From positions 1-31,997 of the forward strand of contig CAZVHI010000040.1 in the NCBI GenBank assembly GCA_964627205.1: a DNA stretch of 31,997 nucleotides. The letters are read 5' to 3'. The notes under the pieces are model-generated. The model did no database searches. It was not told the origin of the DNA and saw only the letters and a list, made by a program, of their open reading frames with translations. Shown piece by piece: positions 2,315 through 31,997 of the stretch; position 1 is the first letter of the stretch, and every line of letters begins with the position of its first letter. The translations under genes and the position numbers were made by a program. This DNA comes from an uncultured bacterium (GTDB taxonomy: Bacteria > Krumholzibacteriota > Krumholzibacteriia > JACNKJ01).

Positions 2315-4531
2315 CTATCGCTCCAGGTAGGGTTCGATCTCGGGGAGTCGCTTCAGCTCGGTGTCCCAGAAGGCGCCGAGATTGCCGTACCCGCCTTCTT
2401 CGCTGCCGGGTGCGGGCAGGGTCCGCCACACGCTATCGGCGAGCAGTGTGTCCGGCGAGAAGCGGCCGGTCTCCGGATCGCGCAATTCGTGGCGGTCCTT
2501 GCCGCCACCGTCCAGCAGCAGGCCGAGACTGAGAGACTCTCCATAGTAGGGAGCCGTGCTCGGGGGCCGCGAGTACTCCTTGCGGCTGTCCGAGGCGCCG
2601 AAGCCGAGCTGTCCCGCGTCGAGGCGGTAGAGGTCGTCGCCCCCCAGGTCGATGAGCAAGGCGTTGCTGCGGATCTCGGCCAGCCCCAGGCTGATGATCT
2701 TCGCCTCGTAGATGTCGTCGCCCGCCGTGTCGATGAGCAAGGCGTTCGTGAAGTCCCAGCCGAAGGCGATCCCGGCGCCCGCGTTCTCGAAGAGGCGGTG
2801 CGTGTCGTCGCCGCCCTCGTCGACGATGGCGCCGATGCAGTAGTGGGCGCCGCTCGCCTGCGTGAAGTAGACGCTCTCGTAGAGGTCGTCGCCGTCGCCT
2901 TCGTAGACGAGACCCACGCCGTACCAGTAGCCGCAGCCGAGGCTCCAGTTGCCGCTGCGGTAGCGATCGTTGCCGTGGATGTCGATCAGCGCGCCCAGGC
3001 CGCCGGCCCAGCTGTGGCCGTCGCTGCCGTCGCCCCGGCGGCCCATGCCGCAGCCCTGGGCGGCGTTCGCGGCGACGAGGTGCTCGCTGTGGTAGTCGGC
3101 GCGGCCGGCCTTCTCGGCGTAGGGCTCCGCCTTGTAGTGGTCGTTCCCGCCCCAGGAAGCCAGCACGCCCACCCCGCCGACGCCCCCGTAACCCTGCCCC
3201 TCGCCCAGGAGGTAGAGCTCGTCGTCGCCGTCGGCGTCGAGGAGCAGGCCGCAGCCAAAGTAACCCGCACCCTGGCCGCTGCTTTCGAGCCGCCAGCGGT
3301 CGCGACCTTCGAGGTCGGCGAGCATCCCGATGCCGAACTGCCCGCAGCCCTGGGCCAGCTTCCCCGCCTCGTAGCGATCGTTGCCGGCGACGTCCAGCAG
3401 CATGCCCACGCCGAGCAGGCCGCAGCCCTGCGCGCCGTCGCTGCCGATGTATTCGTCGTCACCGTTCAGGTCGAGCAGGACCGAGACTGGCAGCTCCGGG
3501 CCGCGGCTGCCGGCCGCGGCGCCGCGGTACTTGTCGTTGCCGCCGAGGTCGACCCAGAGCAGACAGCGCTCGGCATGGTAGTCGCCGCCGTCCCGTCCGC
3601 TCAGGACCACGCGGCCGAGCGCGGTCTGAGCGTCCAGCAGGATCCCCTTGCCGCCGCGCGCGGAGGGCGAGAGGCCGAGCAACGCGAGGCGCGCCGTGTC
3701 GAGGGCCTGCGCGGTCTTGAGTGCGGCATAGGCGAGCGACTGTCGGTCCCAGAGCCGCGCCAGGTCGTCGATCTCCGGGTAGTAGACATCGCCCGTGCTC
3801 TGGGTCTCGCCCAGGTCGTCGATGCGGAGCACGCTCTCTGTGAGCTCCCGGTCCGCGCGCCGAAGCGACAGGCGCGACCAGCGCGCCGCCTCGGCGAGAT
3901 TGAGGACGAGCTCGCCGAGGACCTTCCGCAGCGCGGGATCTAGGGCGGCGAGGCTCGCGGCGAGTTCCACGTCACCGGGTGCCGCGGTTTCCTCCTCGTA
4001 GCGCGCCCCGAAGGCGGGGCCCGCCACGCCCCGCGCGCGGCCCAGGGAGGCGAGGGCGCTCGCCAGCGGCGCCTCCGGGTCGAGCTCCGGAAAGTTGTTG
4101 GCCGAGTAGTTGCGGAAGCCACCCGCGAAGTTCTCCACGGCGAGGTGATAGCAGAGCTGGTAGAGGCCGTCGTCGTGCTCGGCCAGGCGGGCGGGGTCGA
4201 GGTGTTTCCGGACGGGGTCCGCCATGCCGTGCAGGTAGCGCGGGATCACCTGGGGACGCGCGAAGAGGTCGTCGAAGGCGTGGTGGAGGTAGGGCGTGCG
4301 CGAAGGCAAGGGATAGCGGCGCCAGGAGCCGCGGGGGCGGTAGCCCAGGTCGTCGCGACTCAGGCCCAGGCGCTCGAGGGCCTCGCCGAGGATATCCGAT
4401 GGCTCCTCCTCGAAGACGTAGGTACCGAGGGTGACGAGGCCCTCCGGCTGCACCTGCTCGGTCTGCGCGTGGGCGGCACTCGCGGCCAGCAGGGCCAGCA
4501 GGATTGCGAGAAGCGTGAAAACGGCGCGCAT
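2315..4531 (-). CDS. Large secreted repeat protein (738 aa) with signal peptide and ~13 tandem ~22-27-aa repeats carrying a G-[ND]-D-x-[YHW] motif. Predicted beta-helix/beta-roll-like surface protein.
   Basis: Start at 4531 (ATG) with GGGGGGAGG upstream. Signal peptide [22 protein letters not shown]. Repeats such as [54 protein letters not shown] and [11 protein letters not shown] are separated by Gly-rich QGCG/GxG stretches. I cannot assign a named family. Confidence 0.7.
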
Positions 4532-6757: not shown

Positions 6758-8272
6758 ATGGCGATGGTGATGACACGCCTCTACGACATCCGCGAACGCA
6801 GCATCGAAGTCTCCACCCAGCGTCCGACCGACGTGCGGGTGGACGCGAGCATTCTACCCTGGCGCCCCGGCGACCGGGAGCGGGAAGCGACGGGTATCCT
6901 GGGGAAGGCCGGCGGGGCCGTCCTCGTGGAGATCGACGACTACCGTGGTGAACGCGACGTGATGCTCACATCCGGCGGATTCCTGCCCTCGCGCTTCCTC
7001 TTCCATCTCACCTTGCCCGAGGAGGGCAAGGTGGATCCCGAGATCCTGGAGGAGCGCTTCCGCGACTGTCTCTTCCAGGCCGGTGTGCTGGGGCTCGGCG
7101 AGCTCGCCATCCCCATCGTCGAGTTCTCGCCCTTCGTGGAGGACTTCTCGGAACTCGTGGAAGCGGTCTGGAAGGCCTGCCGCGAGTTTCTCGGTAGGGA
7201 GCGCGGCCCCCGGCGCGTCCTCTTCCTTGTCGAGGATCGGGACCTGCGGGGCCAGTACCTGCGGCACTTCTTCGGGCGCAAGCAGGCGGAGGAGCGCAAA
7301 TGGAGCGCCGGCGACTCGGCGCCGGGTGCGATCCCGACGCCTGCGAGTCAAACGCCGTCGGAAGCGATCCTCCGCCGCCGGGAGGGCGAGGAGAAGGTGC
7401 TCTCGCTGGACGTGGCCGAGACCGACGCGCTGACGGGCGCCCTGCAGTCCCTGCTGGTGGACTACAGCCAGGGCCGCAGCCTCGACCCGACGCTATGCGG
7501 CCTCACGCCGCCCATGCGCCAAGCGCTGGACCGCAGCGTGAGCCGGCAGGGCGAACCCTCCGAGCTGCCCGCGCGCCTGCGCATCCTGGGCTCGGATCTA
7601 GTGCTCAAGTTGCCCTGGGAGCTCCTGCGTCTGGGGCACGGCTACCTGGGGGAGGAGCACCTGCTCACGCGCGGAACGAACTTCCTCCATTTCCAGAAGG
7701 AGCGGCGGCGCACTTCCCCGCAGCCCTTCCAGGTCAGCTTCCGAGTGACGGGCAGTCCCGACGCCGCCCGCCGCCTCGCCGAGGAGCTGCAGAGCCTGAG
7801 CGAGCGGCGCCAGCTTGGCCTGAGCTGGGGCAAGGAAGAGGGAGCCAGCGCCCGCTTGGTGCACTGTCTCGGCCGGAAGGCGGCCGAGAGCCTGCTCGAC
7901 GAGATGCCGCTCAGCTGCGAGCTGGTCTTCCTGGAACTGGAGCCGGGCGAGGACTGGCGCGAGAGCAGCGGGATCGCCACGGAGGAGTGCGCCCGGCAAC
8001 TCGTTGCGCACGGCTGCCGCCGCGTGCTGGCTCCGCTGGCCGGCTTCCGCAGCGACCGGGAGCGCTTCGCCTTCCGGACGACCTTCTACGAGCGTCTGCT
8101 CTCGGGCGCCAGCGTCGGTGACGCCCTGCACTATGCGCAGCGCGTCGCCATGGAAGCCTTCGGCACGCACTCGGGCTGGTGGCTCTACCGGATCTTCGGC
8201 CAGACGGACGAGATCCTCATCCCCGCGAGAAAGACAGCCCAGCGCGAGAGCCGCGCGACGCAGCAGGCATAG
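6758..8272 (+). CDS. CHAT-like (caspase-fold) domain protein, ~504 aa. Start codon is uncertain (ATG 6758/6764/6770, none with a clear SD).
   Basis: The C-terminal half follows the CHAT domain order: LKLPWELL motif, then LVHCLGR (His region), then MPLSCELVFLE (Cys region), then a helical region ending HSGWWLYRIFG (CHAT domains typically end hP.WAaFvL.G). The reading frame stays open back to 6494, but that stretch is P/S/A-rich and overlaps the previous gene. A strong terminator follows. Confidence 0.45.
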   Translation: MAMVMTRLYDIRERSIEVSTQRPTDVRVDASILPWRPGDREREATGILGKAGGAVLVEIDDYRGERDVMLTSGGFLPSRFLFHLTLPEEGKVDPEILEERFRDCLFQAGVLGLGELAIPIVEFSPFVEDFSELVEAVWKACREFLGRERGPRRVLFLVEDRDLRGQYLRHFFGRKQAEERKWSAGDSAPGAIPTPASQTPSEAILRRREGEEKVLSLDVAETDALTGALQSLLVDYSQGRSLDPTLCGLTPPMRQALDRSVSRQGEPSELPARLRILGSDLVLKLPWELLRLGHGYLGEEHLLTRGTNFLHFQKERRRTSPQPFQVSFRVTGSPDAARRLAEELQSLSERRQLGLSWGKEEGASARLVHCLGRKAAESLLDEMPLSCELVFLELEPGEDWRESSGIATEECARQLVAHGCRRVLAPLAGFRSDRERFAFRTTFYERLLSGASVGDALHYAQRVAMEAFGTHSGWWLYRIFGQTDEILIPARKTAQRESRATQQA

Positions 8273-11217: not shown

Positions 11218-12564
11218 CTAGGTCTCTACCTCTTCCACCTCAGCCTCCAGCATGCGCAGGAAGGCGCCGAGGATGTCGTCCATGTCGGGCCGGCCGATCT
11301 CCTCGAGGGAGTAGGTCACCCGCGTGCTGGGGTGCTGGATGTCGATGATCCGCCGCAGGTCGATGGGCGTGCCGATGACCACGGCCTCGCATTCGGTGGC
11401 GTTGATCGTCGCCTCGAGGTCCTTGATCTGATCGTCGCCGTAGCCCATGGCCGGCAGCAGGATGCCGATGTCCTCGTAGTGGTCGAAGGTCTCCACGAGC
11501 TTGCCGACGAGCCAGGGGCGGGGGTCGACGGGCATGCCGCCGTGCTTGAGCACGGCCACCGTGCCGGCGCCCAGCTTCATCTCGCCGTGCGTGAGCGTGG
11601 GGCCGTCCTCGACGATGAGCACCTGCTTGCCCTCGATCAGGTCGGGATCCTCCACGCTGATGGGGCTGGCCGCGTCGACGATCACGGCCTCGGGGTTGAG
11701 CTCGCGGACGACGTCGCGGACCTCCTCGATCTCGTCCAGGCCCGCGCTGTCGATCTTGTTGATCACGACGACGTCCGCCTGGAGGAGGTTCGTCTCGCCG
11801 GGGTAGTAGCTGGACTCGTGGCCGGGACGGAGCGGGTCGACCACGGTGATCAGCAGGTTGGGCAGGAAGAAGCTGGTGTCGTTGTTGCCGCCGTCCCAGA
11901 GGATGACGTCGGCCTCCTTCTCCGCCTCGCGCAGGATGGCCTCGTAGTCCACGCCGGCGTAGACGACGTGCCCGGCCGCGATGTGCGGCTCGTACTCCTC
12001 CATCTCCTCGATGCTGCAGTCCTGCTCCTTCAGGTCGTCGAGTGTGGCGAAGCGCTGGACGGCTTGCTTGACGAGGTCGCCGTAGGGCATGGGGTGGCGG
12101 ACGGCCACGACCTTCTTGCCCAGGTCGCTCAGGATCTCCATCACCTTGCGCGTCGTCTGGCTCTTGCCGCAGCCGGTACGCGTGGCGCAGACGGCGATGA
12201 CGGGCTTGCTGCTCTCGAGCATGGTGGCGGCCGTGCCGATGAGCTTGAAGTCCGGGCCCATGGCGTTCACGAAGCTGGCAGCGTGCATCACGTGCTCGTG
12301 GGGGACGTCGCTGTAGGAGAACACGACCTCTTCGACCTGATATTCGTCGATCAGCTCGGCGAGATCCTCCTCCGGGTGGATGGGAATGCCCTCGGGGTAG
12401 AGCCCGCCCGCCAGCTCGGCGGGGTAGCGCCGGCCGTCGATGTCGGGAATCTGCGTGGCCGTGAAGGCGACGACCTCGATGTCCTCGTTGTCCCGGTACA
12501 GGACATTGAAGTTGTGAAAGTCGCGGCCCGCCGCGCCCATGATGATGATCTTCTTGCGTGCCAT
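11218..12564 (-). CDS. P-loop GTPase-like protein of the cyclic 2,3-diphosphoglycerate synthetase (COG2403-like) family, 448 aa.
   Basis: ATG at 12564 with GAGGAG 8 nt upstream. Walker A TRTGCGKS, Walker B VILWDGG and NKID (G4-like) in the central domain. Overall length and N-terminus (KKIIIMGAAGRDFHNF) fit cDPGS-family proteins as I remember them. Family assignment is from memory, not a search. Confidence 0.45.
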   Translation of the reverse strand: MARKKIIIMGAAGRDFHNFNVLYRDNEDIEVVAFTATQIPDIDGRRYPAELAGGLYPEGIPIHPEEDLAELIDEYQVEEVVFSYSDVPHEHVMHAASFVNAMGPDFKLIGTAATMLESSKPVIAVCATRTGCGKSQTTRKVMEILSDLGKKVVAVRHPMPYGDLVKQAVQRFATLDDLKEQDCSIEEMEEYEPHIAAGHVVYAGVDYEAILREAEKEADVILWDGGNNDTSFFLPNLLITVVDPLRPGHESSYYPGETNLLQADVVVINKIDSAGLDEIEEVRDVVRELNPEAVIVDAASPISVEDPDLIEGKQVLIVEDGPTLTHGEMKLGAGTVAVLKHGGMPVDPRPWLVGKLVETFDHYEDIGILLPAMGYGDDQIKDLEATINATECEAVVIGTPIDLRRIIDIQHPSTRVTYSLEEIGRPDMDDILGAFLRMLEAEVEEVET

Positions 12565-14142: not shown

Positions 14143-14556
14143 TCAGAGCGTGATGATCTGCGCGCCCTCGCAACCCGCGAGGAAGGCGGTGGCACCGCTG
14201 AAGCCGTCCACCTTGCCCTTTAGCTCCTCCTCCGCGATACCCAGCACATGCAGCGTGTTCGAGCAGGCGAAGAGCTTCACGCCATCCTGGCGAAGCTGTG
14301 CGAGCAGCTCGCTCGCGCCGGGCTGCCCGGCCAGCGCCGCGCGGACGCCGTCGGCCAGGTCCGCGAGGCCGCTCGGCAGGGGCGCGTCGTCCAGGGTGCC
14401 GCGGGCCAGGCGCAGGAGGGGCTCCCAGCTCAGGAAAAGGCGGACCTCCTTGCCGAGAGCATGCGCGCTGGCCGCAAGATTGACAGCCGCCACGACCCGA
14501 TCCAACCCCCCCGAGACGAGCAGTATGCAGACCTTCCTGTTCTCCTCTTGAGTCAT
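14143..14556 (-). CDS. DsrE/DsrF-like (YchN-fold) small protein, 137 aa.
   Basis: Size and pattern (KVCILLVSGGLDR...conserved Cys in FACSNTLHV...C-terminal GCEGAQII) resemble the DsrE/DsrF/TusD-like family. GGAG upstream of the ATG at 14556. Call is from motif memory only. Confidence 0.45.
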   Translation of the reverse strand: MTQEENRKVCILLVSGGLDRVVAAVNLAASAHALGKEVRLFLSWEPLLRLARGTLDDAPLPSGLADLADGVRAALAGQPGASELLAQLRQDGVKLFACSNTLHVLGIAEEELKGKVDGFSGATAFLAGCEGAQIITL

Positions 14557-14625
14557 GGAATACGCTCCAGAGCGCGCTCTTGAAGAGGGCTACGGTATCA
14601 GTGCGCGGTCTTGAGTGGGTGTAAA

Positions 14626-14702
14626 CGGTCTGCGCTTGGCCGGCTCCCGCCGTAGCGACTGTGAAACCGGAGCCAAGGCGGGAGCCGGCCAAGCGCAGAC
14701 CG
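14626..14702. repeat. Hairpin element A: perfect 26-bp inverted repeat with a 25-nt loop GTAGCGACTGTGAAACCGGAGCCAA. It ends 1 nt from the stop codon of the 14704..15966 gene.
   Basis: 14626-14651 (CGGTCTGCGCTTGGCCGGCTCCCGCC) is the exact reverse complement of 14677-14702. The loop and the inner CGCC/GGCG pairs are almost identical to element B at 30458-30540, while the outer stems are unrelated. Confidence 0.9.
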
Positions 14703-14703
14703 C

Positions 14704-15966
14704 TTAGATATTCTTGAGGACCGCGCTCTGGACCGTGATGAAGTGCATGTTCGCCGTCGTGACGATGTTGGTGTCCTTCCGCTGCTCGCGCGGGTTGCGC
14801 CGGTTCCGCAGGGGGAAGGGCCGGTTGGCCAGGCGCATGTCCACGATCGCACGCTCGTTGTTGGCGGCGGCCATGTCCATGATCTCCTGGATCTCCGGCT
14901 TCACGCCCTCTCGCGGGATGACGAAGCGGAACTCGTCCTCGCCGATGATGTATCGGTCGCCCTCGTTGCTGAGCCGGGCCGTCACGCTGACGGTCTGCCC
15001 GAGCATCCAGCCGAAGGTGGCCTCCTCCAGCGGATCCGCGTCGCGCACACGCACGTAGGCGCCGCGGGCCTCGGTGTCCAGCGCGTCCACGCGGCTGGGC
15101 GCCGAGCCGGAGACGGGGATGCGTCCCAAGTACTTGAGCTCGCCCCGAGGGGAGACCATCTCTTCGCCGACGTAGATTCCGTTGACCCTCATGTTGCCCT
15201 CGCGGGTGTCCAGCTTGAGGGTCACGGGGGCGTTGTTGTGGGCCTCGATGGAGGCCTTCAGGTTGCCGATCCCCTCGATCTTCACGTAGAAGCCGCCCTC
15301 CAGGATCACGTTGTTGCCGCGGATGTAAAGCGGCCGCTTGATCCGGAGGTTCGAACGGTGGCTGAAGTGCGGCTTCAGGAAGTAGGCGAAGTAGTTCTGG
15401 CCTTCGAAGGGTTGCTCGGTGGTCTTCATGACCGCCTGGAGGCTGCGCGGCTCGTAGTGGTCGGCCTGGGCGAGGTAGACCGCGCGGGCCACGACGAGCA
15501 CGACGATGAGCACGCCGAGGCGCACGGCGCTGCCCTTGATCAGGGCGGCGGGGCCCTTCTTGTAGAAGGGCAGGTTCGCCTCCATGATGTGCGTCAGTTC
15601 CTCGGTGAAGGAGTCCTCGCGACTCAGGGTCCGCTTCGCATCCTCGGACGAGGGGATGAACTCCTCGCCCGCGCTCAGGGCGGCGCCCGGTGTCTCGTCG
15701 AGCATCTCGCGAAGAAAGGCGAGGCGGCCTCCGGGGCAGGTGAAGCAGATCTCCTTGCCCGCCTTGCCCGATACGACGAAGTAGTCGTCACCCCGCAGGT
15801 CTTCGTACTCGTCCATGCGGACGATGGCCGACTCGATCGGATCGAGATTCAGTTTCGCGCGGAGCTGCTTCTCCTCGCGGGCGGAGTAGCCGCTCACGCG
15901 GACCTGGTAGTTGGGATCCTTCCTGTAGACGGCGATCCTCATGCGGGACTCTGCCAACGCGCGCAC
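14704..15966 (-). CDS. Hypothetical bitopic membrane protein (~410-420 aa). N-terminal cytoplasmic domain, one TM helix (AVRLGVLIVVLVVARAVYLA), large extracytoplasmic domain.
   Basis: Long ORF with a clear hydrophobic helix ~130 aa in. Start is ambiguous: GTG 15966 has GGAGG directly adjacent, TTG 15957 has GGAGG 8 nt upstream, ATG 15942 has no SD. No named domain recognised. Confidence 0.5.
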   Translation of the reverse strand: MRALAESRMRIAVYRKDPNYQVRVSGYSAREEKQLRAKLNLDPIESAIVRMDEYEDLRGDDYFVVSGKAGKEICFTCPGGRLAFLREMLDETPGAALSAGEEFIPSSEDAKRTLSREDSFTEELTHIMEANLPFYKKGPAALIKGSAVRLGVLIVVLVVARAVYLAQADHYEPRSLQAVMKTTEQPFEGQNYFAYFLKPHFSHRSNLRIKRPLYIRGNNVILEGGFYVKIEGIGNLKASIEAHNNAPVTLKLDTREGNMRVNGIYVGEEMVSPRGELKYLGRIPVSGSAPSRVDALDTEARGAYVRVRDADPLEEATFGWMLGQTVSVTARLSNEGDRYIIGEDEFRFVIPREGVKPEIQEIMDMAAANNERAIVDMRLANRPFPLRNRRNPREQRKDTNIVTTANMHFITVQSAVLKNI

Positions 15967-20073: not shown

Positions 20074-20949
20074 TCATCGCCATTTTCGCACGAAGGGCAG
20101 GATGTGCGAGAAGCCCAGCTCCGCGAAGAGCGTCTCGCAGCGCTCACGCGAGGCGCCGTGATACTCCAGCTCTGCGGGTCCCGCGTCCAAGGGCAGGTTC
20201 CGCTCGAGGAGCACGAGCCGGCGGGAGAGAAAGGCGCTCTCGCGATGCTCCTCGAGGCGCTTGGCCACGCCCTTCGCGCCGCGTATGGGCAGCTCCGGCA
20301 CCTGCTCCAGCGAGTCGTAGACGCCGTCCAGCGAGTGCAGGGACTCGAGCAGCGCGGAGGCGGTCTTGGGCCCCACGCCCCTCACGCCCGGAACGTTGTC
20401 GCTGCTGTCCCCGGTCAGCGCGAGATAATCCACCATCTGCTCCGGCGTCACGCCGAAGCGGCGTTTCACCGTGCGGGGCGTGAAGCGCCGGCTGCGCGAA
20501 GGGTCGCTGACCGTCAGGCGATCGTCGACGAGCTGGGCGAGGTCCTTGTCGCCGGAGATGATGGTCACGGTCATCCCCTCAGCGCGGACGGTTTCTGCCA
20601 GGGTGGCGAGCACGTCGTCCGCTTCGTAGTTCTCCATCTTGAAGAGGGCGAGGCCCAGAGCTTCCACCAGGCTCTCGCACTGGGCGAACTGGGGTAGCAG
20701 GGCGGGGGGTGTCTCGTCGCGGTTCATCTTGTATTCGGGGAAGATCTCGTTGCGGAAGCTCTTGGGCCCCGAGTCGAAGACGATGCCGATGTGACTGGGG
20801 TTCTCGCGCGCGAGCAGGCGGAGCAGGAAGTCGACGAAGCCGAAGCTCGCATTGGTGGGCACGCCTTCGGGACTCGCACCCTCCGGGTTGGAGTAGAAGT
20901 AGCGGAAGATGTAGGCCATGGCGTCGACGAGGATGACGTTCGCTTCCAC
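20074..20949 (-). CDS. 5'-3' exonuclease / flap endonuclease (Pol I N-terminal-domain-like, ExoIX/Xni-type), 291 aa, GTG start.
   Basis: N-terminus NVILVDAMAYIFRYFY (conserved LLxDGxxLxxRAxxA-like start of 5'-3' exo), acidic metal-binding cluster ENYEADDVLATLA...ISGDKDLAQL, and the H3TH region DNVPGVRGVGPKTASALL. GTG with AGGAG 5 nt upstream. Starts 8 nt after the upstream lipoprotein gene's stop. Confidence 0.8.
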   Translation of the reverse strand: MEANVILVDAMAYIFRYFYSNPEGASPEGVPTNASFGFVDFLLRLLARENPSHIGIVFDSGPKSFRNEIFPEYKMNRDETPPALLPQFAQCESLVEALGLALFKMENYEADDVLATLAETVRAEGMTVTIISGDKDLAQLVDDRLTVSDPSRSRRFTPRTVKRRFGVTPEQMVDYLALTGDSSDNVPGVRGVGPKTASALLESLHSLDGVYDSLEQVPELPIRGAKGVAKRLEEHRESAFLSRRLVLLERNLPLDAGPAELEYHGASRERCETLFAELGFSHILPFVRKWR

Positions 20950-29400: not shown

Positions 29401-30454
29401 GGGCAGCCCGAACGCGATGATCGCCCCCTTCTGGGACAACCTCTACCAGTCGGGCAACGACAAGGTCTACTACTGGCACGACACAGCGAACCACCGCTAC
29501 GTCGTGCAGTGGAGCCGGCTGCGAAACCAGCACAATGGGTCGACCGAGAACTTCGAGATGATCCTCTACGACCCCGTCTACCATCCGACGGCCACCGGCG
29601 ACGGCGAGATCGTCTTCCAGTACAGCACGATCTACAACGTCGACAGCACCAACGGCTACGGCACGGTGGGCATCCAGAACCAGGACCGCTCGGACGGGCT
29701 GCTCTACACCTACTGGAACCAGTACCCGGCTGGCGCCGCCAGCCTCTCGAGCGGCCGCGCGATCCGCGTCCTCACAGTGACGTCACAGCTCGAGCCCACC
29801 TGCGACGCCTCCCCCGAGGAGTTCGTCCGCGTCATGGCGCCGAACGAGACGACGACCGGTTGGCTACAGCTGAGCAACGGCGGCGACCCCGGCTCGATCC
29901 TCTCCTACCAGGTCGGCGCCGGGGAGCTGCCCAGTGGAGGCCCGGGCGGCGGCCCGCTGGCCGGCCGCGGTGTCGATTGGCTGCAGATTCAGGACGGCGC
30001 GGGCGACGTGCCCCAGGGCGGTACGGACGACGTTCAGATCACCTTCGACTCGTCCGGGCTGGAGGAGGGGACCTACGAGGCACTGCTGCTCGTGGCGAGC
30101 AACGCCGCAGAACCAGTGTTCGTGCCGGTCACCCTGATCGTGGACGGCACCGGCACGGGCGCGGAGCAGGCGCCGACCGTCTTCGCGCTAGGGCAGAACC
30201 ACCCCAATCCCTTCAACCCGCGGACGGAGATCCGCTTCGCCCTGCCCGCGGATGGCGAGGCGCGGCTGGCGATCTACGACCTGTCCGGCCGGCGCGTGCG
30301 CACGCTGGTCGAGGGTTCTCTCCCTGCTGGCACTCATCATGTGGTCTGGGACGGCACGGACGATGCCGGCCAGGCCCTGGCCTCGGGCGTCTACTTCTAT
30401 CGCCTCGAGACCGCCGCGCAGACTCTGAGTCGTAAGATGCTGTTGTTAAAGTGA
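26417..30454 (+). CDS. Large secreted C25-family (gingipain-like) cysteine peptidase (~1345 aa) with multiple Ig-like/beta-sandwich domains and a T9SS type-A C-terminal sorting domain.
   Basis: Signal peptide MRRLPALLIPMILLLSFDAAA. The C25-like core LAGDANGS...YRGYLNMSG...KLPYAIIVTCDTGSFSE resembles the gingipain catalytic-Cys region. The C-terminus NHPNPFNPRTEIRFALP...YDLSGRRVRTL...GVYFYRL...KMLLLK is the Por_Secre_tail/T9SS CTD signature. Confidence 0.7.
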   Translation: MRRLPALLIPMILLLSFDAAAVVQPQKLLLDPDAASEAVACRIASEVGEPLRLEFTLPALDLEEIAVAGEVYQALSISGGGMRGETGQAGLPSYSRLLAVPAGSVARATVISRADQALPGYRVLPVQPDGAEDFVIDRDWYAAGVAAAPPAVELGDVAYIRDQAVLPLTINPVSWDPATGELRVATQLEIEVELVGASALTDDSARRFIPESFDRLFSDVLLGYQRGDAEVGPGTYLMICPNNSGVTSRLSNLLDWRRRQGYNVILATTAQTGTTTGSILNYIQSTYNTVDPPLEHVVLAGDANGSYSIPCWYENLSWYDGEGDHYYTNLEGGDVLSDVHIGRLSFRDYGTLEDIVDKIVTYESDPPMGDAGWFTRAGLAGDQYTQSGITTVYVNQWVKQHLLAHNYTQVDTMWAPNATQMRNSINQGLSVFGYRGYLNMSGMSTGYITGLTNGYKLPYAIIVTCDTGSFSEQQTCRSEAFLRAANGGGIGSVGTATWGTHTRYNNCYYQGSWDGVINGSDHRLGPSHTRGKLELYNNYQLSQPNTVEIWCVWNNLMGDPATPMWMAYPADLDVTHPAELAVGANSVALNVSSSGLPVEGAGVALYKDGELRVTGYTDAAGAANLPIAGYGAGELLVTVTKHNFMPYLGSLDLGSLPVFAAYEASIVDDDGSGGSLGNGNGVVNPGETIELPVALHNYGSGTATDVSATITSSDPFVSIIDDVESYPDIPAGATVWSAEDFDFAVAAGTPDGHVIALDLEVTSGFQSWTSLIELTVVSAAFEQEDFSWGGSGSMLDPGESGSFSVLIRNVGTSSSGGALAVLQTDSPWVDVTDPFGTYALIAPGSTGENLDDTFALDIASDCFEGHQAAFQLTLIYGDGAQATAEFSLPVGSTSTGDPIGPDGYGYYAFDNSDSAYPQAPVYDWVEIAPNHGGSGTSVGLTDNGWEQDDTNILPLPFTFRYYGQDYNEISICSNGWAALGASGLVHYRNWSIPSSGSPNAMIAPFWDNLYQSGNDKVYYWHDTANHRYVVQWSRLRNQHNGSTENFEMILYDPVYHPTATGDGEIVFQYSTIYNVDSTNGYGTVGIQNQDRSDGLLYTYWNQYPAGAASLSSGRAIRVLTVTSQLEPTCDASPEEFVRVMAPNETTTGWLQLSNGGDPGSILSYQVGAGELPSGGPGGGPLAGRGVDWLQIQDGAGDVPQGGTDDVQITFDSSGLEEGTYEALLLVASNAAEPVFVPVTLIVDGTGTGAEQAPTVFALGQNHPNPFNPRTEIRFALPADGEARLAIYDLSGRRVRTLVEGSLPAGTHHVVWDGTDDAGQALASGVYFYRLETAAQTLSRKMLLLK

Positions 30455-30457
30455 GCT

Positions 30458-30540
30458 TGCTCGGAGAGGACACGTACCCTTTCGCCGTAGCGACTGTGAA
30501 GCTGGAGCCAAGGCGAAAGGGTACGTGTCCTCTCCGAGCA
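30458..30540. repeat. Hairpin element B: perfect 29-bp inverted repeat with a 25-nt loop GTAGCGACTGTGAAGCTGGAGCCAA. It starts 4 nt after the peptidase stop codon.
   Basis: 30458-30486 (TGCTCGGAGAGGACACGTACCCTTTCGCC) is the exact reverse complement of 30512-30540. The loop differs from element A at only 2 of 25 positions, and the CGCC/GGCG closing pairs are shared. Confidence 0.9.
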
Positions 30541-30649
30541 CCCCCGTAGCTAACCCAGCTACCGAACAAACCACGGGGGTGCAGGGCCTCTCTGCTCGAG
30601 CCAGGATTATCGCTTGCAGCCACGGCGGACTTCGGGGCACAGTGCGCGC

Positions 30650-31804: not shown

Positions 31805-31997
31805 GCCCCGGGCCGCCGACCTCATCGAGAAGGGTATGGTGGGGACGATCGGCGTCATGACCGTGACCTACGACTTCGAGCAGCACATGGACGGCGCGCA
31901 GCTCAGCCGGAGCGCTGCCATGCTGATCAGATTGCTCGTCATCGTTGTTCGTTGCCAGCTCTATCCGGACTCCATGGCCCCATAGCTAACAGACACT

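What the first reader, a model, noticed from the sequence alone, without database searches (positions are those of the whole stretch)
14626..14702. Long perfect hairpin with a conserved 25-nt apical loop, abutting the stop codon of a minus-strand gene (member A of a two-copy family)
Positions 14626-14651 and 14677-14702 form a perfect 26-bp inverted repeat. The 25-nt spacer is GTAGCGACTGTGAAACCGGAGCCAA. A second element at 30458-30540 has a 29-bp perfect stem of unrelated sequence and a loop differing at only two positions (A15G, C17T, both transitions). Both also share the innermost CGCC/GGCG pairs, giving a conserved ~33-nt core. A conserved apex combined with covarying but perfectly paired outer stems indicates selection on structure. 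This pattern is expected of a structured RNA, or of a protein- or recombinase-recognised DNA hairpin. It is not expected of an ordinary intrinsic terminator, which would lack a conserved 25-nt loop, and this element has no convincing U-tract. It is the opposite of the integron attC pattern, which has conserved stem ends and a variable middle. Element A is squeezed between a stop codon (14704) and the start of the DsrE-like gene (14556). Candidate roles: a protein-binding 3'-UTR RNA element, a small-RNA apical-loop seed, a miniature mobile hairpin (REP/MITE-like, or a target/end of an IS200/IS605-type transposase), or a recombination site.
Basis: seen in the sequence. Interest (0 to 1): 0.8.

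Follow-up and report, generated by a model that had tools for sequence, protein, structure and literature searches.

The report
Nested repeat hairpins after stop codons
The two long hairpins are real and belong to a previously undescribed repeat family of an uncultured bacterial phylum (Krumholzibacteriota): a small conserved mini-hairpin sits at the tip of a perfect, site-specific stem that starts right after a gene's stop codon, and its function is still unknown.

Summary
A (14626-14702) and B (30458-30540) are perfect 26-bp and 29-bp inverted repeats around a 25-nt centre that differs at 2 positions.

The centre is not an open loop. It is an imperfect mini-hairpin with a 5-pair helix, tandem G·A mismatches, and a 9-nt loop TGTGAARCY.

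The motif is not private to this window. Related Krumholzibacteriota genomes carry the same apex (GCGCC-TGTGAAGC-GGCGC) on unrelated outer stems, and I saw it in either orientation relative to the upstream gene. Most copies start 0-6 nt from a stop codon. One (L091 #2) instead ends 14 nt before a start codon.

Close relatives show presence/absence differences. One orthologous copy shows three fully compensated pair changes in the stem and no change in the apex. There is no Rfam match and no clear U-tract.

Best reading: a REP-like duplicative core sitting at the tip of gene-end hairpins, whose arms are kept perfect by arm-to-arm copying and/or selection.

A strand-specific 3'-UTR RNA element is less likely, because orientation is not tied to transcription. 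It is not excluded.

Copy number per genome and any partner enzyme could not be tested. I rate it a new variant of a known kind, of moderate interest.

The parts
14626..14651 (.). Element A, left outer arm (26 nt, site-specific)
   Evidence: Perfect complement of 14677-14702.
14648..14680 (+). Element A, conserved 33-nt core (CGCC + 25-nt centre + GGCG). It contains the mini-helix 14655-14659 / 14669-14673 with tandem G·A, and the apical loop TGTGAAACC at 14660-14668.
   Evidence: 31/33 identical to 30483-30515. The motif occurs twice in the window with 0 expected. The apex is shared with L091, L092 and L093.
14677..14702 (.). Element A, right outer arm (26 nt)
14704..14706 (-). Stop codon (TAA) of the 412-aa gene (14704-15942, minus strand). 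It pairs with 14622-14624 as an extension of stem A.
   Evidence: The extended stem is seen (I1).
14712..14736 (-). Segment S: the last codons (TVQSAVLK) of the 412-aa ORF. It pairs across hairpin A with S'1, or alternatively with S'2.
   Evidence: score 30 against a shuffle maximum of 22; MFE fold. The same pairing is seen in L091 and L093 (12-bp perfect pairing with the stop codon in the loop).
14592..14615 (-). S'1: first downstream complement of S. It closes an outer helix around hairpin A.
14562..14586 (-). S'2: second complement of S (21/25). It overlaps the GGAG Shine-Dalgarno (14565-14568) of the DsrE-like gene, whose ATG is at 14554-14556 on the minus strand.
   Evidence: (I3).
30452..30454 (+). 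Stop codon (TGA) of the C25-peptidase / T9SS C-terminal-domain gene, 3 nt before stem B
30458..30486 (.). Element B, left outer arm (29 nt, unrelated to the arm of A)
30483..30515 (+). Element B, conserved 33-nt core. The apical loop TGTGAAGCT is at 30495-30503.
30512..30540 (.). Element B, right outer arm (29 nt)

Best explanation
A and B are two copies of a repeat family found across several lineages. I could count it only in about 20-30 kb stretches. The family consists of nested extragenic hairpins in Krumholzibacteriota.

The repeated unit is a 33-36-nt imperfect mini-hairpin, the 'core'. It has a 5-pair helix closing the loop TGTGAAGC and conserved non-Watson-Crick pairs below it. The core sits at the tip of a perfect outer stem whose sequence is specific to each site. 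In most copies that stem starts at a stop codon or within a few nt of one.

Shown:
- the architecture;
- its presence in at least two clades at about 65% protein identity;
- near-identical cores within one genome, against diverged cores between genera;
- both orientations;
- gain/loss differences between close relatives;
- fully compensated changes in an outer stem.

Inferred:
- The core is a REP/MITE-like duplicative sequence that is copied or converted between sites, probably by a trans-acting enzyme that recognises the apex.
- It lands in, or seeds, hairpins at gene ends. At site A it lies inside the loop of an older hairpin (S/S').
- The outer arms stay perfect because one arm is repeatedly copied from the other by replication template switching, possibly helped by selection for a stable 3'-end hairpin in the mRNA.
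- Any effect on the host (transcript 3'-end protection or termination, or coupling to the downstream gene at A) would be a by-product or a secondary recruitment.
For: **Architecture and significance.**

**Lineage.** The best named homologue of the flanking protein is from Candidatus Krumholzibacteriota, and synteny is conserved.

**Same apex on unrelated stems in relatives**:
- L091 #1: 16-bp stem.
- L091 #2: 11+4-bp stem.
- L091 #3: about 27 pairs.
- L092 #3.
- L093 #2.
- Invariant columns GCG.CTGTGAA.C.

**Within-genome identity.**
- The cores of L091 #1 and #2 are exact reverse complements over 32-36 nt.
- A and B are 31/33 identical, yet their stems are unrelated.

**Both orientations relative to the upstream gene.**

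**Position.** The outer stem starts 0-6 nt from the stop codon at A, B, L091 #1, L091 #3 and L092 #3.

**Turnover at the orthologous site.**
- L081 has an 11-nt spacer and no hairpin.
- L092 (95.7% aa identity to L091) keeps only the 3' half of #2. The roughly 179-nt difference is bounded by the direct repeat GTGAAGCGG.
- L093 (86%) lacks #1 but keeps #2 with a different outer stem.

**Nesting.** In L093 the S/S' hairpin is uninterrupted (12 bp). In L091 and in the window, the core-bearing hairpin lies in the loop of S/S'.

**Stem evolution.** L091 #3 versus L092 #3 shows 3 pairs changed on both sides, 0 on one side, and an invariant 27-nt apex, while the flanking non-coding DNA diverges freely.

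**Mechanism precedent.** Template switching creates and repairs perfect stems and gives multi-base compensated changes (PMC8794818). It also homogenises inverted-repeat arms and inverts spacers (PMC8604942).

**REP precedent.** REPs are 20-40-bp palindromic repeats found mostly downstream of ORFs, in either orientation (PMC3733652).

**Not a described RNA family.**
Against: - No complete genome could be scanned, so high copy number is an extrapolation from 2 copies in 32 kb and 3 copies in 21 kb.
- No transposase or nuclease partner was seen in the window or the loci. One cannot be excluded elsewhere in the genome.
- The element at site A keeps the same orientation and a homologous 3' block (..CA[C/G]AG[G/T]CGCT..) in five lineages. 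That looks like vertical inheritance under constraint rather than repeated insertion.
- The 8-nt loop is invariant across genera, which is more conservation than a selfish repeat strictly needs.
- Outer stems of 26-29 bp are longer than the ordinary hairpins of these genomes (10-17 bp). So 'insertion into ordinary terminators' does not by itself explain them.
- The direction of the indels (gain or loss) is not resolved.
Confidence: 0.5

Rival explanations
1. A dedicated cis-acting RNA element. The hairpin is transcribed as the 3' end of the upstream mRNA, or the 5' leader of the next gene. Its conserved apical loop (UGUGAAGC or its complement) is bound by a conserved protein, or kisses a complementary loop, to control termination, decay or translational coupling.
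For: - The loop and closing helix are invariant across genera while the stems turn over.
- The stem starts at the stop codon.
- At site A orientation is conserved in five lineages.
- At site A the surrounding S/S' pairing sequesters the SD of the DsrE-like gene.
- In L091, #1 and #2 lie on one transcript with fully complementary loops.
- G·U-compatible positions exist: the A extension on the gene strand and the loop SNP C5T in L002.
Against: - The loop is presented in both senses on mRNAs: A, L091 #1 and L091 #3 one way, B and L091 #2 the other.
- Close relatives lose the element without replacement.
- Perfect 26-29-bp duplexes would be RNase III substrates rather than typical protein-binding stems (general knowledge).
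- The wobble evidence is mixed between strands.
- There is no Rfam relative.
Confidence: 0.22
2. A DNA-level recognition site. The apex, extruded as a hairpin or cruciform or exposed in single-stranded DNA, is bound or cut by a recombinase, an HUH/Y1 transposase or a nucleoid protein. In pairs, inverted cores could flip the DNA between them, for example L091 #1/#2 upstream of the DsrE-like gene.
For: - Independence from transcription direction.
- Exact inverted 32-36-nt cores about 100 nt apart in L091, just upstream of a start codon.
- An indel bounded by a repeat that lies inside the loop.
- Several G·T positions fall on the TGTGAAGC strand whichever strand the gene is on: L091 #2, L093 #2 and L095.
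Against: - No recombinase or transposase gene lies next to any copy examined.
- No inverted-orientation variant was seen among the population contigs at A or B.
- The window copies are single, not paired.
- The recognition arms of tyrosine recombinases are normally the conserved part, whereas here the arms vary.
Confidence: 0.15
3. Ordinary intrinsic terminators that happen to resemble each other.
For: They lie immediately 3' of genes and are very stable GC-rich hairpins.
Against: - A 33-nt core shared at 31/33 has 0 chance expectation.
- The same apex occurs in other genera.
- There is no clear U-tract, whereas canonical A-tract/hairpin/T-tract terminators do exist in the same genomes, for example L091 14353-14382 and 20768-20794, and L085 20668-20702.
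Confidence: 0.03

Closest known systems
REP / BIME / REPIN elements (repetitive extragenic palindromes mobilised by RAYT, TnpA-REP)
   Same: Both are short (about 33-36 nt) imperfect palindromes, repeated within a genome. Both are extragenic and found mostly just downstream of ORFs, in either orientation. Both have lineage-specific sequence variants. Copies are sometimes found as inverted pairs, as in L091 #1/#2. The window core even begins with GTAG.
   Different: In REPs and REPINs the conserved repeat forms the stem and the spacer varies. Here the conserved unit is the tip, and it is embedded in long, perfect, site-specific arms. GTAG is not conserved in the L091 clade, which has GCGAG. No RAYT gene was seen, and this could not be tested genome-wide.
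Template-switch (quasipalindrome) mutagenesis of inverted repeats
   Same: It explains perfect arms, multi-base compensated changes in one step, growth of arms into flanking DNA, and possible spacer inversion (PMC8794818, PMC8604942).
   Different: It is a mutational process, not an element. It does not explain why the same apex recurs at many sites and in several genera.
Insertion sequences that target hairpin loops (for example IS1397/ISKpn1 in REP loops; from my own knowledge, not checked here)
   Same: A mobile sequence is found at the tip of a pre-existing palindrome. Site A shows nesting inside an older hairpin.
   Different: Those are full-size IS elements with transposase genes. Here the insert would be a 33-36-nt non-coding unit.
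Integron attC sites
   Same: Both are hairpin-forming sites placed right after the stop codon of a gene. Structure is conserved more than sequence.
   Different: attC conserves the stem base (R/L boxes) and varies the apex. Here it is the reverse. There is no integrase and no cassette array.
Rho-independent terminators
   Same: Both are GC-rich hairpins at the 3' end of a gene.
   Different: Here there is no clear U-tract, the stems are 26-29 bp, and the core is a conserved 33-nt sequence.

Membership tests
REP/REPIN-RAYT | Short imperfect palindrome repeated in extragenic DNA, mostly 3' of ORFs | tested here: met
   The core is an imperfect mini-hairpin. There are 2 copies in the 32-kb window and 3 in the 21-kb locus L091. 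All are intergenic, and 5 of the 7 clear copies start 0-6 nt from a stop codon.
REP/REPIN-RAYT | High copy number per genome (tens to hundreds) | not testable with these tools
Only local densities are known.
REP/REPIN-RAYT | Conserved unpaired GTAG (or CGTC) tag at one end of the palindrome | tested here: not met
   The window core starts with GTAG, but G4 is paired. The L091/L092/L093 cores have GCGAG or CCGGG at that place. The definition is taken from PMC3733652.
REP/REPIN-RAYT | The conserved repeat forms the stem, and the loop or spacer is variable | tested here: not met
   Here the outer stems are unrelated between copies and the tip is conserved.
REP/REPIN-RAYT | A RAYT (Y1 HUH) gene in the same genome, flanked by the repeats | not testable with these tools
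   No such gene is in the window or in the roughly 300 kb of related loci annotated by Pfam.
Intrinsic (Rho-independent) terminator | GC-rich hairpin followed by a U-tract on the transcribed strand | tested here: not met
   On the transcribed strands the hairpins are not called as terminators. The tails are GUUUACACCC at A, CCCCCGUAGC at B, and CCCGCGCACG at L091 #1. On the + strand, antisense to the genes at A, the scan does call a 5-pair sub-hairpin at 14691-14705 with tail AGATATTCTT, but that is within the number of calls expected from shuffles.
Integron attC | Conserved R''/R' (GTTRRRY) at the stem base, variable apex, adjacent integrase or cassette array | tested here: not met
   The stem bases are unrelated. 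There is no integrase among the neighbours.
MITE | Terminal inverted repeats conserved between copies, plus direct target-site duplications | tested here: not met
   The arms of A and B share nothing beyond CGCC/GGCG. No direct repeats flank either element.
Any Rfam 15 family | Score at or above the family gathering threshold | tested here: not met
   There are 0 hits at gathering threshold in the window. Only sub-threshold generic miRNA-precursor models match A and L091 #1/#2.

The most novel reading that the evidence does not exclude
The 33-36-nt core is a new kind of miniature mobile unit, or the recognition module of an unknown hairpin-specific enzyme. It inserts at, or nucleates, hairpin tips next to stop codons. 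It then drives outward growth of perfect palindromes by self-templated synthesis, creating strong 3'-end hairpins throughout Krumholzibacteriota genomes. Alternatively, the invariant UGUGAAGC loop defines a phylum-wide post-transcriptional regulon bound by an unknown protein.
Probability: 0.2. Interest if true: 0.75.

Novelty: new variant of a known kind. Interest (0 to 1): 0.55.

Why it matters
1. It adds a repeat and hairpin family, absent from Rfam, in a candidate phylum known only from metagenomes.

2. Its layout (conserved tip, site-specific perfect arms) is the reverse of REPs, REPINs and attC sites. It offers a natural system for separating selection on structure from mutational arm-to-arm copying as the cause of 'covariation'. 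This is a caveat for covariation-based RNA discovery.

3. The elements break short-read assemblies in three lineages, with contig ends and a poly-G/N artefact at the hairpin. They are therefore probably under-represented in MAGs and may explain recurrent contig breaks in this phylum.

4. If an apex-binding enzyme or protein exists, it would be a new hairpin-recognition system.

Tried and rejected
- **Motif scans of public collections.**
  - The strict 25-mer gave 0 hits in genome contigs and 0 in metagenome contigs.
  - A relaxed 17-base pattern gave 59 metagenome hits. All lacked a flanking inverted repeat, and that number is about what chance predicts.
  - These collections do not contain the samples that hold this contig, so absence there means little.
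  - Viral contigs: 0 hits for the window core. The L091-type core gave one hit without a long flanking inverted repeat, probably chance.
- **'Stems are spacer-like matches to viruses'.** Both stems gave 0 hits in viral contigs. Rejected.
- **Phage and plasmid similarity.** Only chance 20-28-nt matches inside coding genes.
- **Rfam.** Nothing.
- **Sigma-54, sigma-70 or CRP-like site in the centre.** Checked by eye only. The -12 element is missing and there is only one TGTGA half-site. Rejected as unsupported.
- **K-turn reading of the tandem G·A.** There is no 3-nt bulge in register. Rejected.
- **Inverted duplication of the gene end created by the insertion itself.** The S/S' pairing exists without the core in L093, so it predates the core-bearing hairpin. 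It was kept only as 'nesting in an older hairpin'.
- **Walking beyond the window.** All population contigs stop at the same repeat at the right end.
- **Lost look-ups.** Two returned no DNA.
- **Formal pair-shuffle test on the two-sequence alignment.** It is weak by construction (57/500). The argument rests instead on 3 double and 0 single changes, and on the slid controls.

Full report
**1. The observation**

Reading the sequence and the repeat finder confirm two exceptional hairpins.

| Element | Arms | Pairing | 25-nt centre |
|---|---|---|---|
| A | 14626-14651 / 14677-14702 | 26/26 | GTAGCGACTGTGAAACCGGAGCCAA |
| B | 30458-30486 / 30512-30540 | 29/29 | GTAGCGACTGTGAAGCTGGAGCCAA |

- They are the two longest inverted repeats in the window by a wide margin. 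In a scan for perfect hairpins, nothing else exceeds 13 pairs.
- The 25-mer occurs twice in the window, with none in 100 shuffles.
- With the shared CGCC/GGCG, the common core is 33 nt, 31/33 identical. The arms are unrelated.
- Folding z-scores are -10 to -13 on either strand.

The '25-nt loop' is not open. It forms T2:A24, G4:C22, C5:G21 and C8:G18, with tandem G6·A20 / A7·G19, around a 9-nt loop TGTGAARCY. This is read directly from the sequence, and parts of it appear in the folds.

**2. Context in the window**

- A lies between two minus-strand genes. One is a 412-aa protein without a Pfam domain (14704-15942). The other is a DsrE-like protein (14143-14556).
- B lies 3 nt after the TGA of a plus-strand C25-peptidase gene that ends in a T9SS sorting domain. 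It is 110 nt before a metallophosphatase gene.
- Both cores read TGTGAA on the + strand. So the core is antisense to the genes at A and sense at B.
- There is no clear U-tract. On the strands the flanking genes are transcribed from, neither hairpin is called a terminator. On the + strand, antisense to the genes at A, the scan calls a 5-pair sub-hairpin (14691-14705, tail AGATATTCTT), which is within the number of calls shuffles give.
- Stem A extends through the stop codon: TAA pairs with TTA, with one G·U on the gene strand.
- Beyond a 6x6 internal loop, the last codons of the ORF (S, 14712-14736) pair with 14592-14615. Alternatively S pairs with 14562-14586, which covers the GGAG of the DsrE-like gene.

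**3. Where the contig comes from, and why motif scans failed**

- Exact-protein look-ups found the same contig in many samples, in ENA SUTE22-1 assemblies, JGI and Logan.
- Seven of the ten places shown for the DsrE-like gene have a contig end within 138 nt upstream of the gene. That is inside hairpin A or just short of it. One scaffold has poly-G plus N in place of the hairpin.
- One contig carries a C5T change in the centre, near its end.
- The strict motif gave no hit in the genome or metagenome collections. A relaxed pattern gave 59 hits, all without a flanking inverted repeat, about the chance number.
- Those collections do not hold the JGI samples in which B is present verbatim. So the negative result says little.

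**4. Relatives**

Homologues of the 412-aa protein (47-68% identity) include a protein from Candidatus Krumholzibacteriota. Synteny with the DsrE-like gene is conserved.

At the orthologous site, directly after the stop codon, I found the following.

| Locus | Relationship | What is at the site |
|---|---|---|
| L091 | 65% to window | 16-bp perfect stem around a 32-nt centre CCCGCTCGCGCCGCTTCACAGGCGCTCGCAGA |
| L085 | 67% to window | 20-bp perfect stem, 26-nt centre |
| L077 | 66% to window | 11+4-bp stem, 38-nt centre |
| L095 | 90.6% to the L085 orthologue | 12-bp stem, 55-nt centre |
| L097 | 78% to the L091 orthologue | The core with only a 4-bp outer stem |
| L081 | P0010 lineage | An 11-nt spacer and no hairpin |

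- The outer stems are all different.
- The centres share a 3' block ..CA[C/G]AG[G/T]CGCT.. in the same orientation as A on the gene strand.

L091 has two more copies.
- #2 (11392-11454) has a core that is the exact reverse complement of the #1 core. It ends 14 nt before the DsrE-like start codon.
- #3 (about 20809-20873) has its outermost pairs overlapping the TAG of another T9SS-domain gene.

Aligning seven copies gives invariant columns GCG.CTGTGAA.C. So the family apex is a 5-pair helix closing TGTGAAGC. That helix is GCGCC/GGCGC in the L091 clade and GCGAC/GGAGC with tandem G·A in the window.

On the upstream gene's strand the loop reads:
- GYTTCACA at A, L091 #1 and L091 #3;
- TGTGAAGC at B and L091 #2.

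**5. Dynamics**

- *L092.* Its orthologue is 95.7% identical to that of L091. It has only 48 nt between the two genes: TAG, then TGTGAAGCGGCGCGAGCGGGAGAA..., which is the 3' half of L091 #2. The roughly 179-nt difference is bounded in L091 by the direct repeat GTGAAGCGG, once right after the stop codon and once in the loop of #2.
- *L093 (86%).* It lacks #1 but keeps the spacer and #2. The #2 core has 1 change, and the outer stem is different and includes a T:A to C:G double change. Its contig ends in the hairpin.
- *S/S' in L093.* The S/S' pairing is an uninterrupted 12-bp hairpin with the stop codon in its loop. In L091 and in the window, the core-bearing hairpin sits inside that loop. So at this site the element is nested in an older hairpin.
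- *#3 in L091 versus L092.* Three of ten pairs in the middle stem changed on both sides (T:A to G:C, G:C to C:G, A:T to G:C). None changed on one side. The 27-nt apex is identical, while the adjacent non-coding DNA is heavily diverged. The built-in shuffle test has no power with two sequences (57/500). The slid controls give 0-1 double changes.
- *My own estimate.* The chance that three 3'-arm substitutions hit the three partner positions with the complementary base is about 1e-5.

**6. Interpretation**

Four features fit a duplicative, dispensable repeat of the REP type better than a strand-specific regulatory RNA:
- near-identical cores within a genome, but diverged cores between genera;
- both orientations;
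- intergenic sites just 3' of ORFs;
- gain or loss between close relatives.

REPs are 20-40-bp palindromic repeats found mostly downstream of ORFs (PMC3733652).

What is unusual is the layout. The conserved unit is the tip of a long, perfect, site-specific stem. Two non-exclusive processes can give this.
1. The core lands in the loop of an existing hairpin. This is supported by the nesting at site A.
2. Replication template switching copies one arm from the other. This creates, extends and repairs perfect stems and gives multi-base compensated changes (PMC8794818). It also homogenises arms and can invert spacers (PMC8604942).

Copying from the ORF side towards the intergenic side would also explain two things: why stems abut or include the stop codon, and why the complement of the last codons is found downstream. 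That last step is inference.

Selection for a stable hairpin at the mRNA 3' end may add to this. Canonical terminators with A and T tracts exist in the same genomes. So the core-bearing hairpins are a separate class.

**7. What argues the other way**

- The 8-nt loop and its closing helix are invariant across clades at about 65% protein identity.
- Site A keeps its orientation in five lineages.
- At site A the structure could couple translation of the two genes.

A protein- or RNA-recognised apex therefore remains a serious rival, at 0.22 as RNA and 0.15 as DNA.

**8. Comparison with known kinds**

- No Rfam family matches.
- It is not a GTAG-tagged REP. The tag is not conserved, and the conserved part is not the stem.
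- It is not a MITE. There are no shared terminal repeats and no direct target duplications.
- It is not attC. The conservation pattern is reversed and there is no integrase.
- It is not a canonical terminator. There is no clear U-tract.

It works most like a REP-type repeat combined with self-correcting palindromes. I file it as a new variant of a known kind.

**9. Limits**

- Copy number per genome, a partner enzyme, transcription and the polarity of the indels could not be tested.
- The confidence in the composite explanation is 0.5.
- The architectural facts (family, nesting, conserved apex, compensated stems) are secure.

Noticed in passing
window 30538-30582 and 31981-31993: A second hairpin (B2) lies directly after B. 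It has a 10-bp stem GCACCCCCGT/ACGGGGGTGC and, again, a 25-nt loop, which contains a nested GTAGCT/AGCTAC mini-hairpin. Its 5' junction CCCCCGTAGCTAAC recurs as CCCCATAGCTAAC at the very end of the window, next to the repeat where all contigs break.
   Followed up: partly
window 31980-31997, continued in L070 11337-11414: Every contig of this population ends about 66 nt beyond the window's right end. The break is inside the tail of a minus-strand ORF (..RWYNQGYELKAEELIRPSSIRESVC*), which is probably a multi-copy (IS-like) gene. It could be relevant as a possible transposase but could not be identified.
   Followed up: partly
window 14562-14586, 14592-14615, 14712-14736; L091 11210-11223 / 11323-11336; L093 7662-7673 / 7709-7720: A conserved long-range pairing (S/S') joins the last codons (VQSAV) of the 412-aa ORF to a downstream complement, enclosing the stop codon. 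In the window a second complement covers the Shine-Dalgarno of the DsrE-like gene. This could be a translational-coupling or attenuation device, independent of the repeat core.
   Followed up: partly
window 3708-3723 and 14602-14617: There is an exact 16-nt repeat TGCGCGGTCTTGAGTG. One copy is inside the 761-aa ORF (codons LKTAQ) and the other is in the S'1 segment next to hairpin A (blast E = 8e-4). It could be chance or a templated copy.
   Followed up: no
L002, L003, L006-L010 (site A); L093, L094; L099; L004 400-447: Short-read contigs from three different lineages end inside or next to these hairpins. One scaffold has a poly-G/poly-C run plus Ns in place of the hairpin. The elements are likely under-represented in MAGs and cause assembly breaks.
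   Followed up: partly
window 14704-15942 (minus strand) and P0001-P0031: The 412-aa protein has no Pfam domain. It is nonetheless well conserved (69% mean column identity in a 15-sequence alignment, many invariant residues). In most of the related contigs examined it sits next to a DsrE-like gene and an MBL-fold (Apyc1-like) gene. Among hits that carry a taxon name, only Krumholzibacteriota appears. This is an uncharacterised, possibly lineage-restricted family.
   Followed up: no
L093 1086-2547: A group II intron-type reverse transcriptase (RVT_1 + GIIM) lies about 4 kb upstream of the orthologous site in one relative. No link to the hairpins was seen.
   Followed up: no
L091 11240-11249: A solo half-motif CGTGAAGCGG sits directly after the stop codon, in front of hairpin #1. 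It can pair with the loop of #1 (CCGCTTCAC), giving an alternative fold. L093 has a degenerate version (TCGAAGCGCGG) at the same place.
   Followed up: partly
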